Part shown: in pieces, positions 23,016 to 34,621 of the stretch | Layout of the letters: every line of letters begins with the position of its first letter | How positions within the stretch are numbered: position 1 is the stretch's first letter | Source of the DNA: Acinetobacter phage SH-Ab 15497 | DNA: 43,420 nucleotides | Sequence record: MG674163.1 | Direction: 5' to 3' (one strand) | Made by a program: the position numbers and the translations under genes | Notes under the pieces: generated by a model | Database searches by the model: none | What the model was told of the DNA's origin: nothing | What the model saw: only the letters and a program-made list of their open reading frames with translations

Positions 23016-24781
23016 TGAGTGATTTAAAAGTAACGATCAACCCTGATGAAGGCAAGATATTCATTTACTGCAATAAGGCATATAATGATGTCGTGCGTTC
23101 TCTTCCCAACCGCCGTTGGTTGAAATCAAAGGAATGTTGGCAGGCCCCATTGATTCGAGCGAACGCCCAAGTGATTTTGGACAAATTCACTCGATTTAGG
23201 ACTTTTGAATGCTCAGAGAAGGCGCTGGATAAACTACGTGAAGTGGCCAGTTTGAATTTTGTGCCGCAGAATCTGGAGAAATTCCCGTCATGGTATAAGT
23301 TTAAAACCAATCCATTTCCACACCAGTTGAACGCATTGGACTTCGCGTGGTCACGCCCTCAGTCGGCATTCTTCATGGAAATGGGCACTGGTAAATCAAA
23401 GACATTGATCGATTTGGCTTCTGCACGTTGCATGGACGGCCAGATTAATGCCTTGATCGTATTCTGCCCTTATGGTATCCGTGGGACTTGGGAGCATGAA
23501 TTTTCAGTGCACTGCCCTATAGAATACACGACATACGTGGTCGACACTGACGTATATAAATTCGAGAAGAAATTTGATGACTACATTAACCTAGACCACA
23601 AATTTAAAATCGTCATAATCGGCATGGAGTCAATTAGCGGGAAGGAGAAGGACGGCAAGGCATACAACGCCGCCCAGAAATTCGCCAAAACCCATCGTTG
23701 CATGGTAGTAGTTGATGAATCCCAGTATATTAAGAATTACGCATCCAACAGGGCATCCAACGCAACCCAAGTACGTCTGGAGTGTGTCAGTCCAGTGATC
23801 ATGACTGGAACTCCGATTACTCAAGGATACACTGACCTGTTCGGACAATTCGAATTTTTATCACCTGATATCATCGGGGTCGGGGACTTCTATTCGTTCA
23901 GGTCACGGTACTGTGTCATGGGCGGCTTCCAGAATAAATCAATCATTGACTACACAAACACTGATGAGTTGATGGACCTGCTAACGCCGTGGATTTTCCA
24001 AGTAAAGAAAGAGGACGTGTTAAAGGACCTCCCCCCGAAGACCTACACCTCACGAACAGTCGAGCTTACCAAGGAACAGAAAAAGCTGTACGATGAAATC
24101 AAGCAAAATGGATTTGCCAACCTGAAAGACCTCATCAAGGGCCACCCTGAGGACATCGACTTGATTTGTGAAAATGTGTTGACAGTATATTCATCACTGC
24201 AGCAGATCATCGGCGGGTTTGTCACATACTGGGACGAGACAGGTGAGACAAGGGTCAGGAAATTAACCAGAATTATTCCAGTGGATAAAAACCCAAAAAT
24301 CCGCGACATGATGGAGGTGGTTGAGGGCATCGGCAACGCCAGCATGATTATTTGGGCTAGATACCGTGAAGAAATCAAGATGATCAGCGAGGCACTCAGG
24401 GCCAAATACGGCGATGATTCAGTGGTGGAATTCCATGGGGGAGTTACGGCCGAAGATCGAGAGGTCGCAAAAGCCAAGTTCTTGAACAAGGAGGCCCGAT
24501 TCTTTGTGTCGAATGCCGAGACTGGAGGCACTGGATTGACATTGAATGTAGCAACTTATACATTCTATTACTCAAACGACTTCAAGTTGGTGAACCGCTT
24601 ACAATCCGAAGATCGAAACCACCGTATCGGCCAAAAGAACGCCGTAACATATATCGATCAGCCGACCAAGGGCACGATTGATATCAAGATTCTTAGAGCA
24701 ATCAGACAGAAGAAGGATTTGGCGAATTATGTGAAGGAGCGCATATCGGCAGGTAAATCATTGATGGAGTTGTTTGACTAA
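23012..24781 (+). CDS. SNF2-family (SF2) DNA helicase / translocase
   Basis: Motif I is MEMGTGKSKT and motif II is VVVDESQYIKN (DExx box). The C-terminal helicase-C block is FVSNAETGGTGLTLNVATYTFYYS...DRNHRIGQ. Confidence 0.8.
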   Translation: MMSDLKVTINPDEGKIFIYCNKAYNDVVRSLPNRRWLKSKECWQAPLIRANAQVILDKFTRFRTFECSEKALDKLREVASLNFVPQNLEKFPSWYKFKTNPFPHQLNALDFAWSRPQSAFFMEMGTGKSKTLIDLASARCMDGQINALIVFCPYGIRGTWEHEFSVHCPIEYTTYVVDTDVYKFEKKFDDYINLDHKFKIVIIGMESISGKEKDGKAYNAAQKFAKTHRCMVVVDESQYIKNYASNRASNATQVRLECVSPVIMTGTPITQGYTDLFGQFEFLSPDIIGVGDFYSFRSRYCVMGGFQNKSIIDYTNTDELMDLLTPWIFQVKKEDVLKDLPPKTYTSRTVELTKEQKKLYDEIKQNGFANLKDLIKGHPEDIDLICENVLTVYSSLQQIIGGFVTYWDETGETRVRKLTRIIPVDKNPKIRDMMEVVEGIGNASMIIWARYREEIKMISEALRAKYGDDSVVEFHGGVTAEDREVAKAKFLNKEARFFVSNAETGGTGLTLNVATYTFYYSNDFKLVNRLQSEDRNHRIGQKNAVTYIDQPTKGTIDIKILRAIRQKKDLANYVKERISAGKSLMELFD

Positions 24782-24788
24782 ATATTAA

Positions 24789-24817
24789 TTGCGCGGGATC
24801 GGTTATTATGATATAAT
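24789..24817 (+). promoter_or_regulatory. Sigma70-like promoter TTGCGC-17-TATAAT with the -10 embedded in a CGGGATC/GATCCCG hairpin
   Basis: The hexamers are at 24789..24794 and 24812..24817. The hairpin arms are at 24794..24800 and 24819..24825. Confidence 0.45.
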
Positions 24818-24824
24818 TGATCCC

Positions 24825-24877
24825 GTACCCATCTGATGAGCTTGTGAAACCCAAGCGAAACCGAGAGGTCATGGGAC
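24825..24877 (+). ncRNA. Type I hammerhead self-cleaving ribozyme
   Basis: Helix I is GUACCCAU (24825..24832) paired with AUGGGAC (24871..24877), with one bulged A. The core CUGAUGAG is at 24833..24840. Helix II is GCUUG-UGAAACC-CAAGC (24840..24856). GAAA is at 24857..24860. Helix III is A-C-C/G-G-U closed by a GAGA tetraloop (24860..24869). The cleavage triplet GUC has C17 at 24870, so the predicted cut is between 24870 and 24871. Confidence 0.8.
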
Positions 24878-25056
24878 AGCGCACCTTGGTCAATTCCGCA
24901 AGTCGCTTTTGATCAAGAGGACTGCCAACGAATGTGCGCAGGTAGTTGGACGGCACGGTACGATATTGGTCGATTGGCCTCTACGGCAATGAACCATAAA
25001 AGCCACCGTGGGCATAAGGTAAGTAGTGACAGCTCGGAACAGACGGCACTGAATTC

Positions 25057-25133
25057 GCGCTTATAGCTCAGTAGGATAGAGCGATCCCCTCCTAAGGGAT
25101 AGGCCACAAGTTCGATTCTTGTTAAGCGCACCA
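25057..25133 (+). tRNA. tRNA-Arg, anticodon CCU, reads AGG
   Basis: The cloverleaf folds by hand: acceptor GCGCTTA/TAAGCGC, D-arm GCTC..GAGC, anticodon stem ATCCC/GGGAT with loop CTCCTAA, T-arm ACAAG-TTCGATT-CTTGT, discriminator A and an encoded CCA. Confidence 0.85.
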
Positions 25134-25258
25134 AGTAGTTAAATCAAAGAGCGTGGGCGTTCAAAACCATAACCTGTCGGAGATAAGGCAACCCCAGTGT
25201 CCCTCCCGTCCGACCTAGATCAAGGCAGGTAGTCCGCTCTTTTTGATTTAACTACTAG
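25133..25258 (+). repeat. 21-bp inverted repeat flanking an 80-nt segment immediately 3' of the tRNA; possible processing structure or sRNA
   Basis: AAGTAGTTAAATCAAAGAGCG (25133..25153) pairs with CGCTCTTTTTGATTTAACTACT (25234..25255), with a 2-nt bulge. Confidence 0.5.
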
Positions 25259-25278
25259 TTTTCACACGGAGATAAGAG

Positions 25279-25617
25279 ATGCCTACAGTATACGTGGTAC
25301 AAGAAAATCCCCGCATGAACTACCTCCCAGCGGAGAAGTTCGGCGAGGTGAAGTTTTTGACTGCATCGGAGTTCAGTCCGTCGCAGCACAGCTTACGCAA
25401 TAAGCAGATTTTGGAACAGGTCATGGAAAACCTGTCAAATTTTGACCCAGACAAGGATTACCTTGTTCTGAGCGGCAATCCTATCATCATGGGGTTCGTG
25501 TTCAGCCTTCTGATTCAAAAGAAAGGATACCTTCGGGTGCTGTGGTATCACAGTATAGACCGCGAGTATGTGGAAGTAAACTTCAACCCATCGCAAATTT
25601 TGTCGATGAGCAGTTAA
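25279..25617 (+). CDS. Hypothetical protein, 112 aa
   Basis: The start is embedded in GGAGATAAGAGATG (25268..25281). Confidence 0.55.
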   Translation: MPTVYVVQENPRMNYLPAEKFGEVKFLTASEFSPSQHSLRNKQILEQVMENLSNFDPDKDYLVLSGNPIIMGFVFSLLIQKKGYLRVLWYHSIDREYVEVNFNPSQILSMSS

Positions 25618-26496: not shown

Positions 26497-26525
26497 TTGC
26501 AGGTCAGTGCCGCCAGTGATATAAT
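26497..26525 (+). promoter_or_regulatory. Sigma70-like promoter TTGCAG-17-TATAAT with the -10 inside a GTGCCGCCA/TGGCGGCAC hairpin
   Basis: The hexamers are at 26497..26502 and 26520..26525. The hairpin arms are at 26508..26516 and 26525..26533. Confidence 0.4.
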
Positions 26526-26609
26526 GGCGGCACACCACCTAGACACTGGTGGTTAAATAAAAGGTCAGAATTAAGTAACAAATAAGCGAACGCCCTAGGA
26601 GATATAGAG

Positions 26610-29443: not shown

Positions 29444-31318
29444 ATGGCATTCCCGAATATTGAACAGTATCCTCAAATTTCTGTCGACTGCGAGTCCACG
29501 GGTCTTGAGTGGTATAAGGAGGACCGAGCGTTCGGTGTCTCTATTTATCTACCAACTGGCGACGCTGAATACTATGACATCCGAAAGGACCGCAACGCAT
29601 TCCATTGGATGAAGGACAACTTGTGGAAAGCCAAGAAGATCGTCAACCACAACATCAAATTCGATATCCATATGTTGCGGGCGACAGGGATTAACCTTAA
29701 TCCCGCCAATTGTGAATGTACGATGATCAGGGCGGCATTAATTGATGAACACCTCCTCAAGTATGACCTAGATTCACTGCTCAAGAAATACTTAAAGATG
29801 TCAAAGGATAACGACATCTATGCGGATTTAGCACAAATATTCGGAGGCCAACCTACTCGTAAAGTGCAAATCCTGAACCTACACCGTGCACCAGTTGACC
29901 TAGTTGCCCGATATGCCAACATCGATACCGAGGGAGCATATAAACTGTGGGAGTGGCAGGAGGGCGAAATCGAACGCCAAGACCTTCACCAAGTGTGGCA
30001 ACTGGAACGCCGCCTATTCAGGCACATCGTGGAAATGGAACGCCGTGGGATCCGCATCGACCCGAACGAGGCAAACCGCCGTGCGGAGGAACTGGACCGA
30101 GTGACGGCAGAAACTGTGGCCGAATTGAACAGGCTGGCTGGGTTTGAAGTGAACCCGAACCCATCAGGGTCGATCAAGAAATTGTTCAACCCTAAGCAAA
30201 ATGAGGCAGGGATTTGGGTCGCACGTGATGGTACTCCATTACCCAAGACCGATTCGGGCGCACCAAGCCTTGGGGCCAAATCACTGGAATCAATGACTGA
30301 CCCATGCGCCAAGTTGATCTTAAAGGCCCGAAAACTGAACAAGACCAAGGATACCTTTATTCGAGGCCACGTACTGGGACACGCCATTCAAAACGGACAG
30401 GACTGGTTTGTACACCCAAACATCAACCAGACCAAGAGCGACACGGGCGACGGCTCAGAGGGCACGGGAACTGGACGCCTATCATATACCCGACCAGCCC
30501 TGCAGCAGATTCCATCACGTGACAAGGAGATTGCATCAATTGTGCGCCCGATCTTCCTACCTGACCGTGGTCAAAAATGGTCATATGGTGACTTAGACCA
30601 ACATGAATTCCGAATATTTGCCCACTACGCAAACCCGAAGGATATTATCGAAGCCTATGCCCAAAATCCCGATCTAGACATGCATCAAATCGTGGCCGAC
30701 CTAACTGGAATGCCACGGTCAGCAACCAAAGCGGGGGAGGCGAACGCCAAGCAGATCAACTTAGGCATGGTCTTCAACATGGGCGCGGGTGAATTGGCCT
30801 CACAGATGGGACTACCATTCACAATTGAATCGGTGGATTTCGGCGATCATGTGCATGACCTGAAAAAGGCAGGGCCTGAGACACTGGAAATCGTCGAAAA
30901 CTATTATGCCAAGGTGCAGGGGGTGAAGGAAATGGCCCGTAAAGCTAGAACTATCGCCAAATCACGCGGATATGTTAGAACTTTGATGGGACGTCACATC
31001 CGATTCCCGCGTGGGATGTTCACATATAAAGCGTCTGGTTTGATCTTCCAAGGAACCGCTGGCGATCTAAACAAGCTCAATATCTGTAACATTGCGGAGT
31101 ACTTGGAATCTGAGTGCCCATATAACCGTCTATTGTTGAATATCCACGACGAGTATTCAGTATCATTGGAGGATGACGGCAAGGAGATTAAGCACCTGAA
31201 AGAACTTCAAGGATTGGTACAGCATCGCCCAGAGCTTAGAGTGCCTATCCGAATCGATTTTTCACATCCTGCGCCTAACTGGTGGCTAGCCACCCGCGCA
31301 GACCTAGCAACAAAATAA
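29444..31318 (+). CDS. dpoZ: Family A DNA polymerase with 3'-5' exonuclease domain; DpoZ candidate
   Basis: The Exo I motif is ISVDCESTGL. Pol motif A is GDLDQHEFRIFAHYA, motif B is RSATKAGEANAKQINLGMVFNMG, and motif C is LNIHDEYSV. The start is inside GGAGATAAGAGATG and overlaps the helicase TAA stop. Confidence 0.8.
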   Translation: MAFPNIEQYPQISVDCESTGLEWYKEDRAFGVSIYLPTGDAEYYDIRKDRNAFHWMKDNLWKAKKIVNHNIKFDIHMLRATGINLNPANCECTMIRAALIDEHLLKYDLDSLLKKYLKMSKDNDIYADLAQIFGGQPTRKVQILNLHRAPVDLVARYANIDTEGAYKLWEWQEGEIERQDLHQVWQLERRLFRHIVEMERRGIRIDPNEANRRAEELDRVTAETVAELNRLAGFEVNPNPSGSIKKLFNPKQNEAGIWVARDGTPLPKTDSGAPSLGAKSLESMTDPCAKLILKARKLNKTKDTFIRGHVLGHAIQNGQDWFVHPNINQTKSDTGDGSEGTGTGRLSYTRPALQQIPSRDKEIASIVRPIFLPDRGQKWSYGDLDQHEFRIFAHYANPKDIIEAYAQNPDLDMHQIVADLTGMPRSATKAGEANAKQINLGMVFNMGAGELASQMGLPFTIESVDFGDHVHDLKKAGPETLEIVENYYAKVQGVKEMARKARTIAKSRGYVRTLMGRHIRFPRGMFTYKASGLIFQGTAGDLNKLNICNIAEYLESECPYNRLLLNIHDEYSVSLEDDGKEIKHLKELQGLVQHRPELRVPIRIDFSHPAPNWWLATRADLATK

Positions 31319-31321
31319 GTA

Positions 31322-31350
31322 TTGACCCCCAATCCTGCCTGTAGTATAAT
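31322..31350 (+). promoter_or_regulatory. Sigma70-like promoter TTGACC-17-TATAAT with the -10 flanked by CCTGCC/GGCAGG hairpin arms
   Basis: The hexamers are at 31322..31327 and 31345..31350. The spacer contains the cccaatc element shared with the promoters at 35745, 39199 and 42270. Confidence 0.5.
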
Positions 31351-31376
31351 GGGCAGGTCTACTACGGAGATTAGAG

Positions 31377-31676
31377 ATGACACAGCAATATGATAATCGC
31401 AACTCTGGCGCATTGTTTCCAAACGATCGCAAGACTAAGCAATCACACCCAGATTATAAGGGTACAATGACTGACGCAGACGGTCAGGAGTTTTGGATTT
31501 CGGCTTGGGTCAAGCAGGGCAGAAAAGGCGAATTCCTATCATTGGCGTTTGAAAAGAAAGAGGACCGACCTGCTGAGGGACCACGAACCTTGGGCGGCTC
31601 GACCCCTAAGCCATCGGCCCCTAAACAGAACCGCAATCCACCTCCTGCAGACCTTGATGACGACCTTCCATTCTAA
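31377..31676 (+). CDS. Small protein with an SSB-like C-terminal tail (DDDLPF)
   Basis: The 99 aa protein has a Pro/Gly-rich linker (GPRTLGGSTPKPSAPKQNRNPPP) and the terminal DLDDDLPF, which matches the bacterial SSB C-terminal tip motif DDDIPF. The start is inside GGAGATTAGAGATG. Confidence 0.5.
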   Translation: MTQQYDNRNSGALFPNDRKTKQSHPDYKGTMTDADGQEFWISAWVKQGRKGEFLSLAFEKKEDRPAEGPRTLGGSTPKPSAPKQNRNPPPADLDDDLPF

Positions 31677-31688
31677 GAGTAAACAGAC

Positions 31689-32852
31689 ATGAAAAAAGCA
31701 ACAGTAATTTGTGATATGCAATTCGGTTCAACTGGTAAAGGCCTAATCGCTGGCTTCTTGGCTGAACGTGACCAACCAGATGTAGTAGTAACGGCTTGGT
31801 CAGCAAACGCGGGACATACTTACATCAACCGCGAAGGACGCAAGTGGGTGCATTGCATGCTGGCCAACGGCATCGTGTCACCTAAACTTAAGGCAGTATT
31901 GATCGGCGGCGGCTCTCAAATGTCGATCCCTACTTTAATATCTGAGATCATGGGATCATTGGACATTCTCCAAGGTAAATCGATTCTAATTCACGAGAAT
32001 GCATGTATCATTCAGCAACGCCATGTGGAAGAAGAAGCAGGCCCAATGACCAAGATCGGTTCTACTAAGAAGGGCTGTGGTGCGGCAATGATGGAAAAAA
32101 TCCGTCGCAACCCTGAATCTAAAATCGTAGCGAAAGACTTCATCGACGATGGCTTAGAGATCCCAGATTTCAAGCTAGACGGAACAGTTGGATTTAAGGA
32201 CATCTCGCGCCACTTCGAGGAATTAGGTGTCTGCATTAAAGTAGTGAGCAATGAAGTGTATCTGGCCGTACTCCACAAGGCCGAGCGTGTGCAAGTGGAA
32301 GGCGCTCAGGGTTTCAGTCTAGGTCTGCATAATGGATTCTACCCATATGTAACATCGCGTGAATGTACGCCTGCTCAGATTTGTAGCGACTGCAACGTGC
32401 CGATTTCAATGGTCGACAAGGTAGTGGGCACAATGCGCACCTACCCGATACGTGTGGCCAATCGTTTTGACGATGAAGGAAAAATGGTCGGATGGTCAGG
32501 GCCGTGTTACTCGGACCAAACGGAACTTACTTGGGAACAAATGGGTGTCACCCCTGAGAAGACCACCGTGACCAAACTGACCCGCCGTATTTTTAGTTTC
32601 AGCCGCATGCAGACCCGTCAGGCAATGCTGGTATGTATGCCAGATGAAATTTTCTTGAACTTCGCCAACTATTGTGCAAGCGAAGACGAGTTGGCATCGA
32701 TCATCGAAGTGATTTCAAACGAAGGCGGTGACGTATCATACATCGGGTGGGGCGACTCCGCTGCGCACATTGAGACAACGCTCGAAGGCGATTGGTCCGA
32801 CGACACTAATCCGTTGTTCAACCAATACAACAAATCATCAAATATAGCATAA
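31689..32852 (+). CDS. purZ: Adenylosuccinate synthetase homolog; PurZ candidate (2-aminoadenine pathway)
   Basis: The PurA-family blocks are SANAGHTYI (PurA GHNAGHT), GSTKKGCGAA (PurA GTTGRGIGPA) and EGAQGFSLGLHNGFYPYVTSR (PurA [21 protein letters not shown]). The P-loop is GSTGKGL instead of the canonical GDEGKGK. At 387 aa it is shorter than host PurA. Confidence 0.75.
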   Translation: MKKATVICDMQFGSTGKGLIAGFLAERDQPDVVVTAWSANAGHTYINREGRKWVHCMLANGIVSPKLKAVLIGGGSQMSIPTLISEIMGSLDILQGKSILIHENACIIQQRHVEEEAGPMTKIGSTKKGCGAAMMEKIRRNPESKIVAKDFIDDGLEIPDFKLDGTVGFKDISRHFEELGVCIKVVSNEVYLAVLHKAERVQVEGAQGFSLGLHNGFYPYVTSRECTPAQICSDCNVPISMVDKVVGTMRTYPIRVANRFDDEGKMVGWSGPCYSDQTELTWEQMGVTPEKTTVTKLTRRIFSFSRMQTRQAMLVCMPDEIFLNFANYCASEDELASIIEVISNEGGDVSYIGWGDSAAHIETTLEGDWSDDTNPLFNQYNKSSNIA

Positions 32853-32864
32853 GGACTACCGCAC

Positions 32865-34022
32865 ATGTCAGGCAATAAATTCGACCAAGAAAAAGTTGAC
32901 CTACATGTGCTCGACCCTTTCTTTATAGAGGGTACGGCACGTGTGGCACAATTCGGGGAACAAAAATACGGGCGTTCAAATTGGATGCAGGGACTGACCC
33001 AGACACGCATCATAAACGCGATCAAGCGACACATTGCACAAATCGAAAAAGGAGAAGACATCGATGAAGAGTCAGGATTCCACCACGCTTACCACGCAGC
33101 ATGGGGATGCCAAGTACTCGCCTACCAACACCGAAACGGGCAAACCCATCTCGACGATCGCCGTTGGTCAGAAAGTGTTCGAGACGCTGACACTAAAATC
33201 GGGACATGTGAGGGTATTAGCGGACATACCGTGCCGTGCATGTATGAAGGTCCCTTTGGAAGGCTACACCCTGTCGATGGCGAAAAAGATGGACTGGTTA
33301 TGTCCTTCGTGCAATCAGAAGCAGATGAGGGAACGGCGCAAGGCGACCCAATCCAACAACTACAACAAATGATCTCTGAGTGGGCCGATCAAGTATATCC
33401 AGACCGTACAGTTGAAAACGCCCTCACTAAAATGATGCTGCATGAAATCCCTGAATTGTTGCACGGCAAAGCCATGGATCCTGCAGAATTCGCAGACGTA
33501 GCGATCTTATTGTTTGACGTGGCCCACCTCCAAGGAATCGACATAGCACAAGCCATGCGCGAAAAGATGGAAATAAACCAAGCACGCGACTGGAAAATAG
33601 ACCCTGCCACTGGTCTGATGTCACACGTGAAGCCGAAAGGAATGATGGAAACAATACGCGACGCCGTCCAAGGGATAGGTGACGCGGCTAGAATTATGGC
33701 GGCCCCTAGTCGTTTGCTCAATGGCAACAATATGGAACTTGCAGAATATACAGCCGAAACCCTTCCGAAACCGCCCGAAAAACCTTGGGAAATCACTATC
33801 CCAAACTGGGCTTTAAAGACAGAGGAGGGCACGCATATAAAGCTTCGCGCAGGGTCTGGAGTATTTGGACGAGTAAAATATCAGTCTCAATGTATATTAA
33901 TGCACAAGAACATGCGCAAACGCAGCCACCTAGAAACTTATTACTGTGCCACAATCAAAGACACAGTAACAGAAGATGAATACAACGTACCTTGGAGCGA
34001 GATTGAACCATGGACAAACTAA
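32865..34022 (+). CDS. mazZ: Two-domain nucleotide pyrophosphohydrolase, N-terminal dATP/dGTP-PPase-like domain plus MazG-like domain; MazZ candidate
   Basis: The N-terminal domain has [11 protein letters not shown], which is DUF550/dATP_dGTP_PPHyd-like. The central MazG-like helical block is [32 protein letters not shown]...[20 protein letters not shown]. Confidence 0.6.
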
Positions 34023-34621
34023 ACATCCGTGACATCCTTCGGGCACAAGATGTGACCCGTTGGCAAATTGTCCGCACCAAGAAACAATCAGTGGCAGAAC
34101 ACACCTTCGCAGTGCAGGCCGTCTTGATGCGTCTTGTGCCACTCCTTATATCTACGTATACAGCACCTATGAAAGTAGGATTTGAGGAGCGGTTGTTATG
34201 TGAGTGCATAATGGGGGCCTTCTGGCATGATATTCCTGAGGTGATCACTGGAGATATTGCGTCTCCAGTTAAGCGCCTTATACGGGACGGGGGCGACATA
34301 ACCCCGTTGGATGACCTAGAGAAAAAGGTGGATCCAGCGTTCATTAAGTGCTACACGGCGGCCAAGCCTCTGACATTGGCGATCATCAAGTGTGCAGATT
34401 TAATGGAAATGGTGTACCACCTAAACGAATACGGCGACCAACGCGCAAACTCCCACTCATGGAGAGTGCAACATGGCATTAACAACGCATTCCATGAACA
34501 CATACACAATTGCAGCGAGAATTTCCCAGCTTTTAAATGGGATGTCGCCCATGGGTTGCTGATTGAAATGCTGGACCCGTCGCAAGAAACGGATATTGAC
34601 TCTATAGTGAATGGAATATGA
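34010..34621 (+). CDS. datZ: HD-domain phosphohydrolase; DatZ (dATP triphosphohydrolase) candidate
   Basis: The HD motif elements are AEHTF (His) and [13 protein letters not shown] (HD...D). The gene overlaps the mazZ-like stop and the downstream nuclease start. Confidence 0.65.

What the first reader, a model, noticed from the sequence alone, without database searches (positions are those of the whole stretch)
24825..24877. Type I hammerhead ribozyme immediately after a promoter and upstream of tRNA-Arg
All hammerhead consensus elements are present in the correct order and spacing:
- Helix I is GUACCCAU/AUGGGAC with a single bulged A.
- The core CUGAUGAG is present.
- Helix II is a 5-bp stem with a 7-nt loop, UGAAACC.
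- GAAA follows.
- Helix III is a 3-bp stem with a GAGA GNRA tetraloop.
- The cleavage triplet is GUC, with the predicted cut between 24870 and 24871.

It begins about 8 nt downstream of the -10 of the hairpin promoter at 24789..24817. Self-cleavage would therefore strip a roughly 47-nt 5' leader and leave a 5'-OH on the transcript that carries the tRNA.

Inference: hammerhead-tRNA linkage is known in phages. In a phage whose DNA is likely Z-substituted it may also be relevant to how early transcripts are processed.
Basis: partly seen in the sequence, partly recalled or inferred. Interest (0 to 1): 0.8.

Follow-up and report, generated by a model that had tools for sequence, protein, structure and literature searches.

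The report
Hammerhead ribozyme heading a phage RNA cassette
The hammerhead self-cleaving ribozyme is very probably real, but it is not mainly a tRNA-leader device: it is the fixed front end of a portable, about 180-base highly folded non-coding RNA of unknown function that moves between Acinetobacter phages, which hints at what bacterial hammerheads are for.

Summary
A complete type I hammerhead lies at 24828-24875, with the predicted cut between 24870 and 24871. A strict descriptor finds it once in the window and never in 300 shuffled windows. Rfam scores it below threshold (HH9, 21.6 bits against 52).

Comparison with 15 homologous loci changes the interpretation. The hammerhead is the 5' end of a roughly 225-nt cassette (24826 to about 25049). 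This cassette is a clean presence/absence insertion directly after a backbone promoter, and it also occurs in an unrelated podophage, in prophages and in a Rep3/integrase element.

Behind the ribozyme lies a roughly 180-nt RNA (here "M1") with six covarying helices and two pseudoknots. It matches no Rfam family. Every M1 copy found carries the hammerhead. tRNA-Arg and the cassette occur independently of each other.

In one sister phage the same hammerhead is fused directly to a tRNA-Met-like gene.

Best reading: the hammerhead is a protein-independent module that makes the 5' end of a portable structured-RNA cargo. Cleavage itself and the function of M1 are untested.

The parts
24789..24817 (+). 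Backbone promoter: -35-like TTGCGC (24789-24794), 17-nt spacer, extended -10 TGATATAAT (24809-24817). Inverted-repeat arms CGGGATC 24794-24800 and GATCCCG 24819-24825 straddle the -10. The expected transcription start is about 24824.
   Evidence: Sequence. The same TGNTAYAAT element and inverted repeat are conserved in relatives that lack the cassette (Bhz9, phage 53, Barton), so it belongs to the phage backbone and not to the cassette. Similar promoters recur at about 26517, 31342, 35764, 39219 and 42290. The generic scan did not call it. The transcription start is inferred.
24828..24875 (+). Type I hammerhead ribozyme. Helix I: 24828-32 with 24871-75. Core CUGAUGA: 24833-39. Helix II: 24840-44 with 24852-56, loop 24845-51. 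GAA: 24857-59. Helix III: 24860-62 with 24867-69, GAGA loop 24863-66. C17: 24870. A window-specific 2-bp extension reaches 24825 and 24877.
   Evidence: In 15 distinct homologues every substitution falls at N7, in loop II, in loop III or as a compensated helix II pair. Other phage hammerheads with the same helix II module have different but complementary helices I and III.
24870..24871 (+). Predicted self-cleavage site, GUC|A. It would leave a 2',3'-cyclic phosphate on the roughly 47-nt leader and a 5'-OH on A24871.
   Evidence: Position follows from the hammerhead consensus (established chemistry). Cleavage itself was not tested.
24871..24949 (+). M1 body, domain 1. Invariant 5' AUGGGACA. Pa: GCGCAC 24879-84 with GUGCGC 24934-39. 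Variable hairpin Pb: 24885-92 with 24910-17. Invariant AGGACU: 24918-23. Pc: CCAAC 24925-29 with GUUGG 24945-49. Pa and Pc form an H-type pseudoknot.
   Evidence: Compensatory changes at 3 of 6 Pa positions and 3 of 5 Pc positions. Pb pairs in every sequence despite a different sequence and length.
24950..25026 (+). M1 body, domain 2. Pd: CACGGU 24954-59 with ACCGUG 25005-10. Pe: UGGU 24967-70 with ACCA 24993-96. Pg: CUAC 24981-84 with GUAG 25023-26. Pg crosses Pd and Pe, forming the second pseudoknot.
   Evidence: Compensatory changes at 4 of 6 Pd, 2 of 4 Pe and 5 of 5 Pg positions. On alignment A2, 98.6% of cells are paired against 25-39% when partners are slid, and 0 of 500 shuffles reach the observed covariation. 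Covariance model R1 finds one copy per locus.
25028..25049 (+). 3' boundary hairpin of the cassette, GACAGCUCGGAACAGACGGCAC. It is a member of a recurring module-boundary motif: GAC(A/U)RC, stem, GGAA(A/U)AGAC, stem.
   Evidence: One search found 28 instances of the motif in 16 of the 20 sequences scanned, with covarying stems. In array-bearing phages they flank M1 on both sides and separate other RNA modules. Whether it acts as a processing site or a recombination site is inferred.
25057..25133 (+). tRNA-Arg(CCT), co-transcribed neighbour. RNase P cleavage at its 5' end would set the 3' end of M1 at 25056 in this phage.
   Evidence: ARAGORN and Rfam tRNA, 71.3 bits. It occurs independently of the cassette in relatives. 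RNase P processing is inferred from general tRNA biology.

Best explanation
The element is a functional type I hammerhead that forms the built-in 5'-end maturation module of a portable non-coding RNA cassette.

Proposed sequence of events:
1. Transcription starts at the backbone promoter at about 24824, or reads through from the helicase gene.
2. The hammerhead is transcribed first, folds, and cuts after C24870.
3. The short 5-bp helix I lets the products separate.
4. This releases the roughly 180-nt doubly pseudoknotted RNA 'M1' (24871 to about 25049/25056). It has an exact, context-independent 5' end, AUGGGAC, carrying a 5'-OH.
5. The 3' end of M1 is set by the boundary hairpin, by RNase P cutting at the adjacent tRNA-Arg, or by both.

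Because the ribozyme travels with the cargo, the cassette yields the same RNA wherever recombination places it: after a promoter, after an integrase gene, or inside non-coding RNA arrays ahead of capsid genes.

Shown here: the motif, its conservation pattern, the folded structure of M1, the strict hammerhead-M1 linkage, and the presence/absence behaviour of the cassette.

Inferred: cleavage in vivo, the transcription start, 3' processing, and the benefit of a 5'-OH (a defined end and protection from 5'-end-dependent decay).

The function of M1 is unknown. Its architecture resembles a ribozyme or a specific ligand- or protein-binding RNA more than a base-pairing small RNA.
For: - The motif is complete and unique: one hit in the window and none in 300 shuffles.
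- There are 16 homologous copies in Acinetobacter phages, prophages and metagenomes. All keep the full core, and variation is confined to N7 (U or C), loop II, loop III (GAGA, GAAA, GCAA, AACAU) and one compensated helix II pair in L095.
- Scans based only on the M1 body in the viral and genome collections returned only copies that also carry the hammerhead. A covariance model of domain 2 finds no hammerhead-less copy in 318 kb.
- M1 is strongly structured: 17 of 26 core helix positions show compensatory changes and 381 of 387 cells are canonical pairs. In the tool control, 0 of 500 shuffles reach the observed value.
- No open reading frame is conserved across the cassette.
- The cassette is a clean insertion/deletion directly after the promoter hairpin. 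It is present in the window, DMU1, Bhz20 and JeffCo, and absent in Bhz9, phage 53 and Barton. It also occurs in the podophage Alexa next to an integrase gene and in L028 between an integrase gene and a Rep3 gene.
- In the JeffCo-like contig L099, the same hammerhead at the same locus is fused to a tRNA-Met-like gene, with the cut 2 nt before G1. The ribozyme was therefore kept while the cargo was swapped.
- Other phage type I hammerheads with the same helix II precede a roughly 105-nt RNA ending in a terminator.
Against: - No Rfam hammerhead model reaches its gathering score (21.6 against 52).
- Within the M1 family, helices I and III never vary, so they give no covariation.
- No tertiary contact was found between loop II and helix I or the flanks. 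The cleavage rate at cellular Mg2+ is therefore uncertain.
- In this window the promoter already places the transcription start only about 4 nt before the ribozyme, so end definition alone seems partly redundant here.
- The full-length minimum-free-energy fold and RNAalifold suggest a competing pairing of the ribozyme's 3' half with the cassette's 3' end.
- There are no expression or cleavage data.
- The function of M1 is unknown, so the need for an exact 5' end is an argument from linkage only.
Confidence: 0.62

Rival explanations
1. The hammerhead exists to process the tRNA transcript: it strips the promoter-proximal leader and leaves a 5'-OH on the RNA that carries tRNA-Arg, as an instance of a functional hammerhead-tRNA partnership.
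For: tRNA-Arg is on the same strand with no terminator in between. In L099 the identical hammerhead is fused directly to a tRNA-like gene. The locus is a hotspot for tRNA and non-coding RNA cargo.
Against: 186 nt of conserved, independently folded RNA separate the cut from the tRNA. RNase P would make the tRNA's 5' end regardless. The cassette occurs without any adjacent tRNA (Bhz20, Alexa, L028), and tRNA-Arg occurs without the hammerhead (Barton, phage 53). The hammerhead is linked to M1 in 16 of 16 loci.
Confidence: 0.15
2. The hammerhead acts as an mRNA-processing or regulatory element. It severs read-through transcripts of the upstream SNF2-helicase gene from the downstream genes and so changes their stability or translation. 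M1 would be a passenger or a regulatory leader.
For: No terminator lies between the helicase stop codon (24781) and the cassette. The literature proposes processing of polycistronic transcripts for bacterial hammerheads (PMC6765202, PMC3088659). Other phage hammerheads with the same module sit in 5' untranslated regions of protein genes.
Against: In Alexa and L028 a terminator-like hairpin follows the cassette and no downstream gene lies on the same strand. The flanking genes differ from locus to locus, while M1 is constant and strongly structured.
Confidence: 0.1
3. Hammerhead cleavage supplies a 5'-OH for ligation (for example by RtcB). M1 would become circular or be joined to another RNA, or the cassette would move through an RNA intermediate as retrozymes do.
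For: The cassette is mobile between unrelated phages. Hammerhead products have the ends that RNA ligases of the RtcB type use (established chemistry). A possible pairing between the region of the cut and the cassette's 3' end would bring the two ends together.
Against: There is only one ribozyme per cassette. No second self-cleaving motif is present to make a 2',3'-cyclic phosphate at the 3' end. RNase P leaves a 3'-OH. No reverse transcriptase or ligase was seen near the cassette in the proteins scanned. Mobility is adequately explained by recombination at shared boundary sequences.
Confidence: 0.06
4. The motif does not cleave. It is either a chance match or a hammerhead-shaped structural domain of M1 that has lost catalysis.
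For: The Rfam score is below threshold. The thermodynamic z-score of the 53-mer is unremarkable at -1.1. No tertiary stabiliser was found.
Against: None of 300 shuffles gives such a motif. All catalytic-core positions and C17 are invariant in every homologue, while the tolerant positions vary. That is the pattern expected for selection on catalysis.
Confidence: 0.05

Closest known systems
Bacterial and phage genomic hammerhead ribozymes, types I-III (Perreault et al. 2011, PMC3088659; Rfam clan CL00010)
   Same: Identical catalytic core, three-helix junction and GUC cleavage triplet. It is phage-borne, and in Alexa and L028 it lies next to integrase genes, the context that paper reports for hundreds of bacterial examples.
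   Different: It scores below every Rfam hammerhead gathering threshold. Helix I is only 5 bp, and no loop-loop or pseudoknot stabiliser could be identified. Unlike the published cases, whose function is called unclear, this one is invariably joined to a specific downstream structured RNA.
Theta ribozymes: minimal HDV-like ribozymes next to phage tRNAs (Kienbeck et al. 2024, PMC10879173)
   Same: A small self-cleaving ribozyme in a phage genome, placed directly against a structured RNA cargo and proposed to trim its end without host enzymes. The L099 relative even has a tRNA-like cargo.
   Different: It belongs to a different ribozyme class. It lies 5' of the cargo rather than 3'. The usual cargo here is not a tRNA but an undescribed, roughly 180-nt pseudoknotted RNA. 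The hosts are Acinetobacter rather than gut Bacteroidota-type phages with recoding.
Engineered ribozyme insulators and processing cassettes such as RiboJ and hammerhead-guide RNA-HDV designs (from my own knowledge, not checked here)
   Same: In both, a 5' hammerhead removes variable upstream sequence so that the downstream RNA has the same 5' end in any transcriptional context. This is what I propose the natural cassette does.
   Different: Those are synthetic, and RiboJ is derived from a type III satellite-RNA hammerhead. Here the arrangement is natural, type I and evolutionarily conserved.
Retrozymes and viroid-like circular RNAs with hammerheads (PMC4918200, PMC7761336)
   Same: A hammerhead associated with a mobile, non-coding, highly structured RNA.
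   Different: Those need a ribozyme at both unit ends, or multimeric transcripts, and they circularise. This cassette has a single hammerhead, is carried in double-stranded DNA phage genomes, and shows no sign of an RNA replication or reverse-transcription stage.
Pseudomonadales-1 RNA (Rfam RF03046)
   Same: It occupies the neighbouring slot in the same kind of hairpin-delimited RNA array in contig L095, and it is a roughly 165-nt structured RNA of unknown function in the same bacterial order.
   Different: M1 does not match its model (no hit at E up to 10), and Pseudomonadales-1 has no hammerhead.

Membership tests
Hammerhead ribozyme | Conserved catalytic core: C3 U4 G5 A6 N7 G8 A9, G12 A13 A14, with A15.1-U16.1 and H17 | tested here: met
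   CUGAUGA, GAA, A24860-U24869 and C24870. All are invariant in 15 distinct homologues apart from N7, which is U or C.
Hammerhead ribozyme | Three helices around the core in the correct order. For type I, helix I is open and helices II and III are closed by loops. | tested here: met
   Descriptor search, minimum-free-energy fold, and HH9 local alignment covering helices I-III.
Hammerhead ribozyme | Base-pair covariation in the helices | tested here: inconclusive
   Within the M1 family, helices I and III never vary. Helix II has one compensatory and one wobble change, both in L095. Across other phage hammerheads sharing the helix II module, helices I and III differ in sequence but stay complementary. 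Those hammerheads are not themselves validated experimentally.
Hammerhead ribozyme | Score at or above the curated Rfam gathering threshold for a hammerhead model | tested here: not met
   There is no hammerhead hit at the gathering threshold. The best is Hammerhead_HH9 at 21.6 bits against 52, E = 0.0068 in 501 nt. Homologues score 18-21.8 bits.
Hammerhead ribozyme | Tertiary contact between the helix I and helix II regions (loop-loop or pseudoknot) that gives fast cleavage at physiological Mg2+ | tested here: inconclusive
   No covarying partner was found for loop II. An internal loop or bulge beyond the 5-bp helix I is possible but is not conserved.
Hammerhead ribozyme | Site-specific, Mg2+-dependent self-cleavage giving a 2',3'-cyclic phosphate and a 5'-OH | not testable with these tools
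   This needs in vitro transcription or 5'-OH-specific RNA-seq.
HDV-like / theta ribozymes | Nested double pseudoknot (P1, P1.1, P2, P3, P4) with cleavage at its own 5' end, matching the Rfam HDV-like models | tested here: not met
   No HDV-family hit at E up to 10 across 24700-25200, nor at E up to 0.5 in related arrays. The helix order of M1 (Pa5'-Pb-Pc5'-Pa3'-Pc3') differs from the HDV order.
Any described RNA family in Rfam 15, tested for the M1 body | Match to one of the 4227 covariance models | tested here: not met
   Only tRNA passes the gathering threshold in the window and in 15 related loci. In the permissive mode nothing else covers 24876-25049 apart from weak chance-level hits.

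The most novel reading that the evidence does not exclude
M1 (24871 to about 25049) is an undescribed class of phage-borne functional RNA. It is a roughly 180-nt fold with two pseudoknots and invariant purine-rich junctions, and it may be catalytic or a specific decoy or binder. It needs an exact 5'-OH end and therefore carries its own hammerhead. It would be one cassette type in a previously unrecognised system of hairpin-delimited, exchangeable non-coding RNA and tRNA modules in Acinetobacter phages. This would give a concrete biological role for at least one lineage of bacterial hammerheads: portable 5'-end maturases for structured RNA cargo.
Probability: 0.4. Interest if true: 0.75.

Novelty: new variant of a known kind. 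Interest (0 to 1): 0.58.

Why it matters
Hundreds of hammerheads are known in bacteria and prophages, but reviews still describe their biological role as undefined (PMC3088659, PMC6765202).

Here a hammerhead is tied, in every copy found, to the 5' end of one particular conserved structured RNA. In a sister phage it is tied to a tRNA-like gene. This makes a specific, testable claim: the ribozyme is a self-contained device for making the 5' end of RNA cargo that moves between genomes.

The analysis also points to a new complex-folded RNA (M1) and to hairpin-delimited arrays of RNA modules in phages of a priority pathogen, some of which are being considered for therapy. Accessory RNAs of this kind are invisible to protein-based annotation. 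Bhz20, for example, annotates two spurious small ORFs across the cassette.

Tried and rejected
- Rfam at gathering and at permissive thresholds, on the window and on related loci. There was no hammerhead above threshold, no family for M1, and no second ribozyme.
- Plasmid collection search with the cassette: no match.
- Coding explanation: no ORF is conserved in frame or length across the family.
- tmRNA or tRNA identity for M1: ARAGORN finds none.
- Search for a covarying partner of loop II as a tertiary pseudoknot: only noise.
- MAFFT alignment of diverse hammerheads for a formal pair count: it was misaligned in helix III, so pairs were tabulated by script instead. That script also mis-parsed the GAAA-loop members.
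- MAFFT columns were not structure-consistent for Pa, Pc and Pg. Those helices were therefore curated by hand, and only the hammerhead, Pa, Pd and Pe were checked with the count of structure pairs.
- Thermodynamic significance: z-scores of the hammerhead (-1.1) and of the whole cassette (about 0) are uninformative.
- Body-only pattern scan of the genome collection: 10 of 12 hits were chance matches in unrelated GC-rich genomes.
- Literature searches for hammerhead plus phage tRNA, hammerhead plus Acinetobacter, and 'Pseudomonadales-1' found no description of this element.

Full report
**1. The observation**

The window is an Acinetobacter siphophage about 94% identical to phage DMU1 over the region queried (window 24400-25400). 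At 24828-24875 the plus strand carries every element of a type I hammerhead:
- Helix I: CCCAU with AUGGG.
- Core: CUGAUGA.
- Helix II: GCUUG with CAAGC, closed by the loop UGAAACC.
- GAA.
- Helix III: ACC with GGU, closed by the loop GAGA.
- C17 at 24870.

A strict descriptor finds this site and no other on either strand, and finds nothing in 300 dinucleotide-preserving shuffles of the window. The 53-mer folds into the three helices.

Rfam does not call it. Nothing but the tRNA passes the gathering thresholds. In permissive mode the best hammerhead hit is HH9 at 21.6 bits against a threshold of 52 (E = 0.0068 for the 501 nt searched). tRNA-Arg(CCT) is at 25057-25133.

**2. The promoter**

Immediately upstream, TTGCGC is followed by 17 nt and then TGATATAAT (24789-24817), an extended -10 promoter. 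An inverted repeat straddles the -10. The generic scan missed it because the -35 matches only 3 of 6 positions. Similar promoters recur in intergenic regions of the window. The element is also conserved in relatives that lack the ribozyme. It therefore belongs to the phage backbone. The inferred transcription start at about 24824 lies about 4 nt before helix I.

**3. What the hammerhead belongs to**

Aligning the helicase-to-gp32 intergenic region of related phages shows the following:
- The hammerhead is the first 50 nt of a roughly 225-nt block (24826 to about 25049).
- This block is a clean presence/absence insertion right after the promoter hairpin.
- It is present in the window, DMU1, vB_AbaSI_2, vB_MZM_2AB-P, Bhz20 and JeffCo.
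- It is absent in Bhz9, phage 53 (pB23 gives the same partial match as phage 53 but was not aligned) and Barton.

The same block, about 73% identical, sits in the unrelated podophage Alexa downstream of an integrase gene. Pattern scans added further copies:
- IMG/VR contigs L012, L028, L078, L079, L080 and L081.
- Two Acinetobacter genome contigs, L083 and L086.
- Metagenome contigs L094, L095 and L096.

The genomic contexts differ. Some copies lie upstream of a major capsid gene. In L028 the copy lies between an integrase gene and a Rep3 initiator gene. No plasmid in PLSDB carries it.

**4. The downstream RNA (M1) is a complex fold**

No ORF is conserved across the block. Six helices are conserved instead:
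- Pa and Pc form an H-type pseudoknot. The variable hairpin Pb sits in its first loop.
- Pd encloses Pe.
- The loop of Pe pairs with the 3' tail (Pg), giving a second pseudoknot.

The hand-curated strand tables show the following:
- 381 of 387 cells are canonical pairs.
- Compensatory double changes occur at 17 of 26 positions: Pa 3 of 6, Pc 3 of 5, Pd 4 of 6, Pe 2 of 4, Pg 5 of 5.
- Pb pairs in every sequence although its sequence and length change.

The tool count covers the three hammerhead helices plus Pa, Pd and Pe on alignment A2:
- 98.6% of cells are paired, against 25-39% when partners are slid.
- Nine pairs change on both sides.
- 0 of 500 shuffles reach the observed covariation.

The junctions are invariant and purine-rich: AUGGGAC, GAGGACU, GGACGGC, AAUGA, GGGCA. 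No Rfam family matches.

**5. Evidence that the hammerhead is under selection as a ribozyme**

Among 15 distinct homologues the body averages about 70-80% identity. In the hammerhead, every substitution falls at a tolerant position:
- N7 (U or C).
- Loop II.
- Loop III (GAGA, GAAA, GCAA, AACAU).
- One helix II position where U-A becomes A-U, next to a U-A to U-G change, both in L095.

Other IMG/VR phage hammerheads share the helix II module GCUUG-UGAAAYU-CAAGC. They have entirely different but complementary helices I and III. Two metagenomic hammerheads share helix I but have different helices II and III.

I could not find a tertiary partner for loop II. The rate of cleavage in cells is therefore open.

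**6. Linkage**

Searches anchored only on the M1 body returned, among true hits, only copies that also carry the hammerhead. A covariance model of domain 2 finds exactly one copy in each M1 locus, and none elsewhere in 318 kb of held sequence.

The tRNA, by contrast, is independent of the cassette:

| Cassette | tRNA-Arg | Phages |
|---|---|---|
| present | present | window, DMU1, JeffCo |
| present | absent | Bhz20 (Alexa and L028 also carry the cassette with no tRNA gene in the locus fetched) |
| absent | present | Barton, phage 53 |
| absent | absent | Bhz9 |

The most informative relative is L099. It is a JeffCo-like contig with nearly identical flanks. There the same hammerhead, at the same site, is followed directly by a tRNA-Met(CAU)-like gene, and the cut falls 2 nt before G1. 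The ribozyme was kept while the cargo was exchanged.

**7. Mechanism proposed**

The hammerhead is transcribed first. It folds and cuts before the roughly 180 nt of cargo can compete, and the 5-bp helix I then releases the product. The cargo gains the same 5' end with a 5'-OH from any transcript, whether promoter-proximal or read-through from the helicase gene. No terminator intervenes.

In this window the 3' end of M1 would be set by the boundary hairpin (25028-25049), by RNase P at the tRNA, or by both.

A self-contained 5' maturase makes sense for a cassette that has no promoter of its own and is found in many transcriptional contexts. A 5'-OH may also protect the RNA from 5'-end-dependent decay; this rests on established E. 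coli RNA-decay biology and is my inference here.

The function of M1 remains unknown. Its architecture suggests a ribozyme or a specific binder rather than a base-pairing small RNA.

**8. Rivals**

- A dedicated tRNA-leader role is weakened by the independence data above. L099 keeps it alive as a related use of the same module.
- An mRNA-processing role is weakened by loci with no downstream gene on the same strand.
- Circularisation lacks a second ribozyme.
- A chance or dead motif is contradicted by the shuffle test and by the substitution pattern.
- A possible alternative pairing between the ribozyme's 3' half and the cassette's 3' end appears in RNAalifold and in the minimum-free-energy fold. 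It rests almost entirely on invariant motifs, and I leave it unexplained.

**9. Comparison with what is known**

Hammerheads near integrase genes and prophages are documented, with unknown function (PMC3088659). Reviews still say so (PMC6765202). The published ribozyme-tRNA association in phages involves the HDV-like theta ribozymes on the 3' side of tRNAs (PMC10879173).

I found no paper describing this element, hammerhead-tRNA fusions in phages, or the Pseudomonadales-1 neighbour.

The ribozyme itself is a new member of a known class. Its obligate pairing with a new structured-RNA cargo is a new variant of how that class is used.

**10. Verdict**

- Observation: confirmed.
- Interest: moderate to high. 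The hammerhead alone is ordinary; the cassette it heads is not.

Noticed in passing
window 25134-25256: A second structured module ('M3') lies directly after tRNA-Arg. It has an 18-bp closing stem, AGUAGUUAAAUCAAAGAGCG with CGCUCUUUUUGAUUUAACUACU, around a variable interior. The minimum free energy is -44.8 kcal/mol with z = -5.6. Homologous modules with a covarying closing stem occur in DMU1, Bhz20 and Bhz9 and in the arrays of L012, L078, L081 and L096. There is no Rfam match.
   Followed up: partly
L012 5536-6020; L078 295-1010; L081 66-585; L095 1398-1870; also L079, L080, L086, L094, L096: Arrays of different non-coding RNA modules of about 200-280 nt are separated by a recurring hairpin: GAC(A/U)RC, a 5-bp covarying stem, GGAA(A/U)AGAC, and the return strand. 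Where the downstream sequence was examined (L012; same ORF pattern in L078, L079, L080, L083 and L086) they lie upstream of capsid genes, and a tRNA-Cys follows the array in L078 and L094. M1 is one such module. This looks like an exchangeable RNA-cassette system, and the role of the hairpin is unknown.
   Followed up: partly
L095 1426-1597: A Pseudomonadales-1 RNA (Rfam RF03046, 81.3 bits) occupies the array slot immediately upstream of the hammerhead-M1 cassette. It is flanked by the same boundary hairpins. This gives that orphan Rfam motif a phage-array context.
   Followed up: partly
L099 74-207 (minus strand of the locus): A JeffCo-like siphophage contig in which the same hammerhead is fused to a tRNA-Met(CAU)-like gene with a long variable arm (ARAGORN; Rfam tRNA 39.6 bits). 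The predicted cut is 2 nt upstream of tRNA position 1.
   Followed up: yes
window 29444-34621: The Z-genome gene set is present: family A DNA polymerase (29444-31318), an adenylosuccinate-synthetase homologue that is PurZ-like (31689-32852), a dATP/dGTP diphosphohydrolase that is MazZ-like (32865-34022), and an HD-domain protein that is DatZ-like (34010-34621). It has no evident connection to the ribozyme.
   Followed up: partly
window about 24789-24825, 26497-26535, 31322-31358 (also 35764, 39219, 42290): A family of intergenic promoters of the form ATTG(C/A), about 17 nt, (TG)nTATAAT. Three of them have an inverted repeat straddling the -10 hexamer, which could be an operator or a 5' hairpin.
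   Followed up: no
L019, L022, L025, L026, L034, L037 (IMG/VR contigs): Another phage lineage has a type I hammerhead with the same helix II module and a long helix III. It is followed by a roughly 105-nt RNA that ends in an intrinsic terminator. This is a second case of a hammerhead heading a small non-coding RNA.
   Followed up: no
L005 (JeffCo) about 2010-2115; L083 about 1925-2030: These M1 copies lack the usual 3' boundary hairpin. They carry instead a roughly 100-nt 3' extension with two covarying hairpins. In JeffCo a hairpin resembling a tRNA T-arm lies just before tRNA-Arg.
   Followed up: no
L002 (Bhz20) 1918-2164: The deposited annotation places two hypothetical small proteins (31 and 43 aa) across the hammerhead-M1 cassette. 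They are not conserved in relatives and are probably artefacts of ORF calling.
   Followed up: yes
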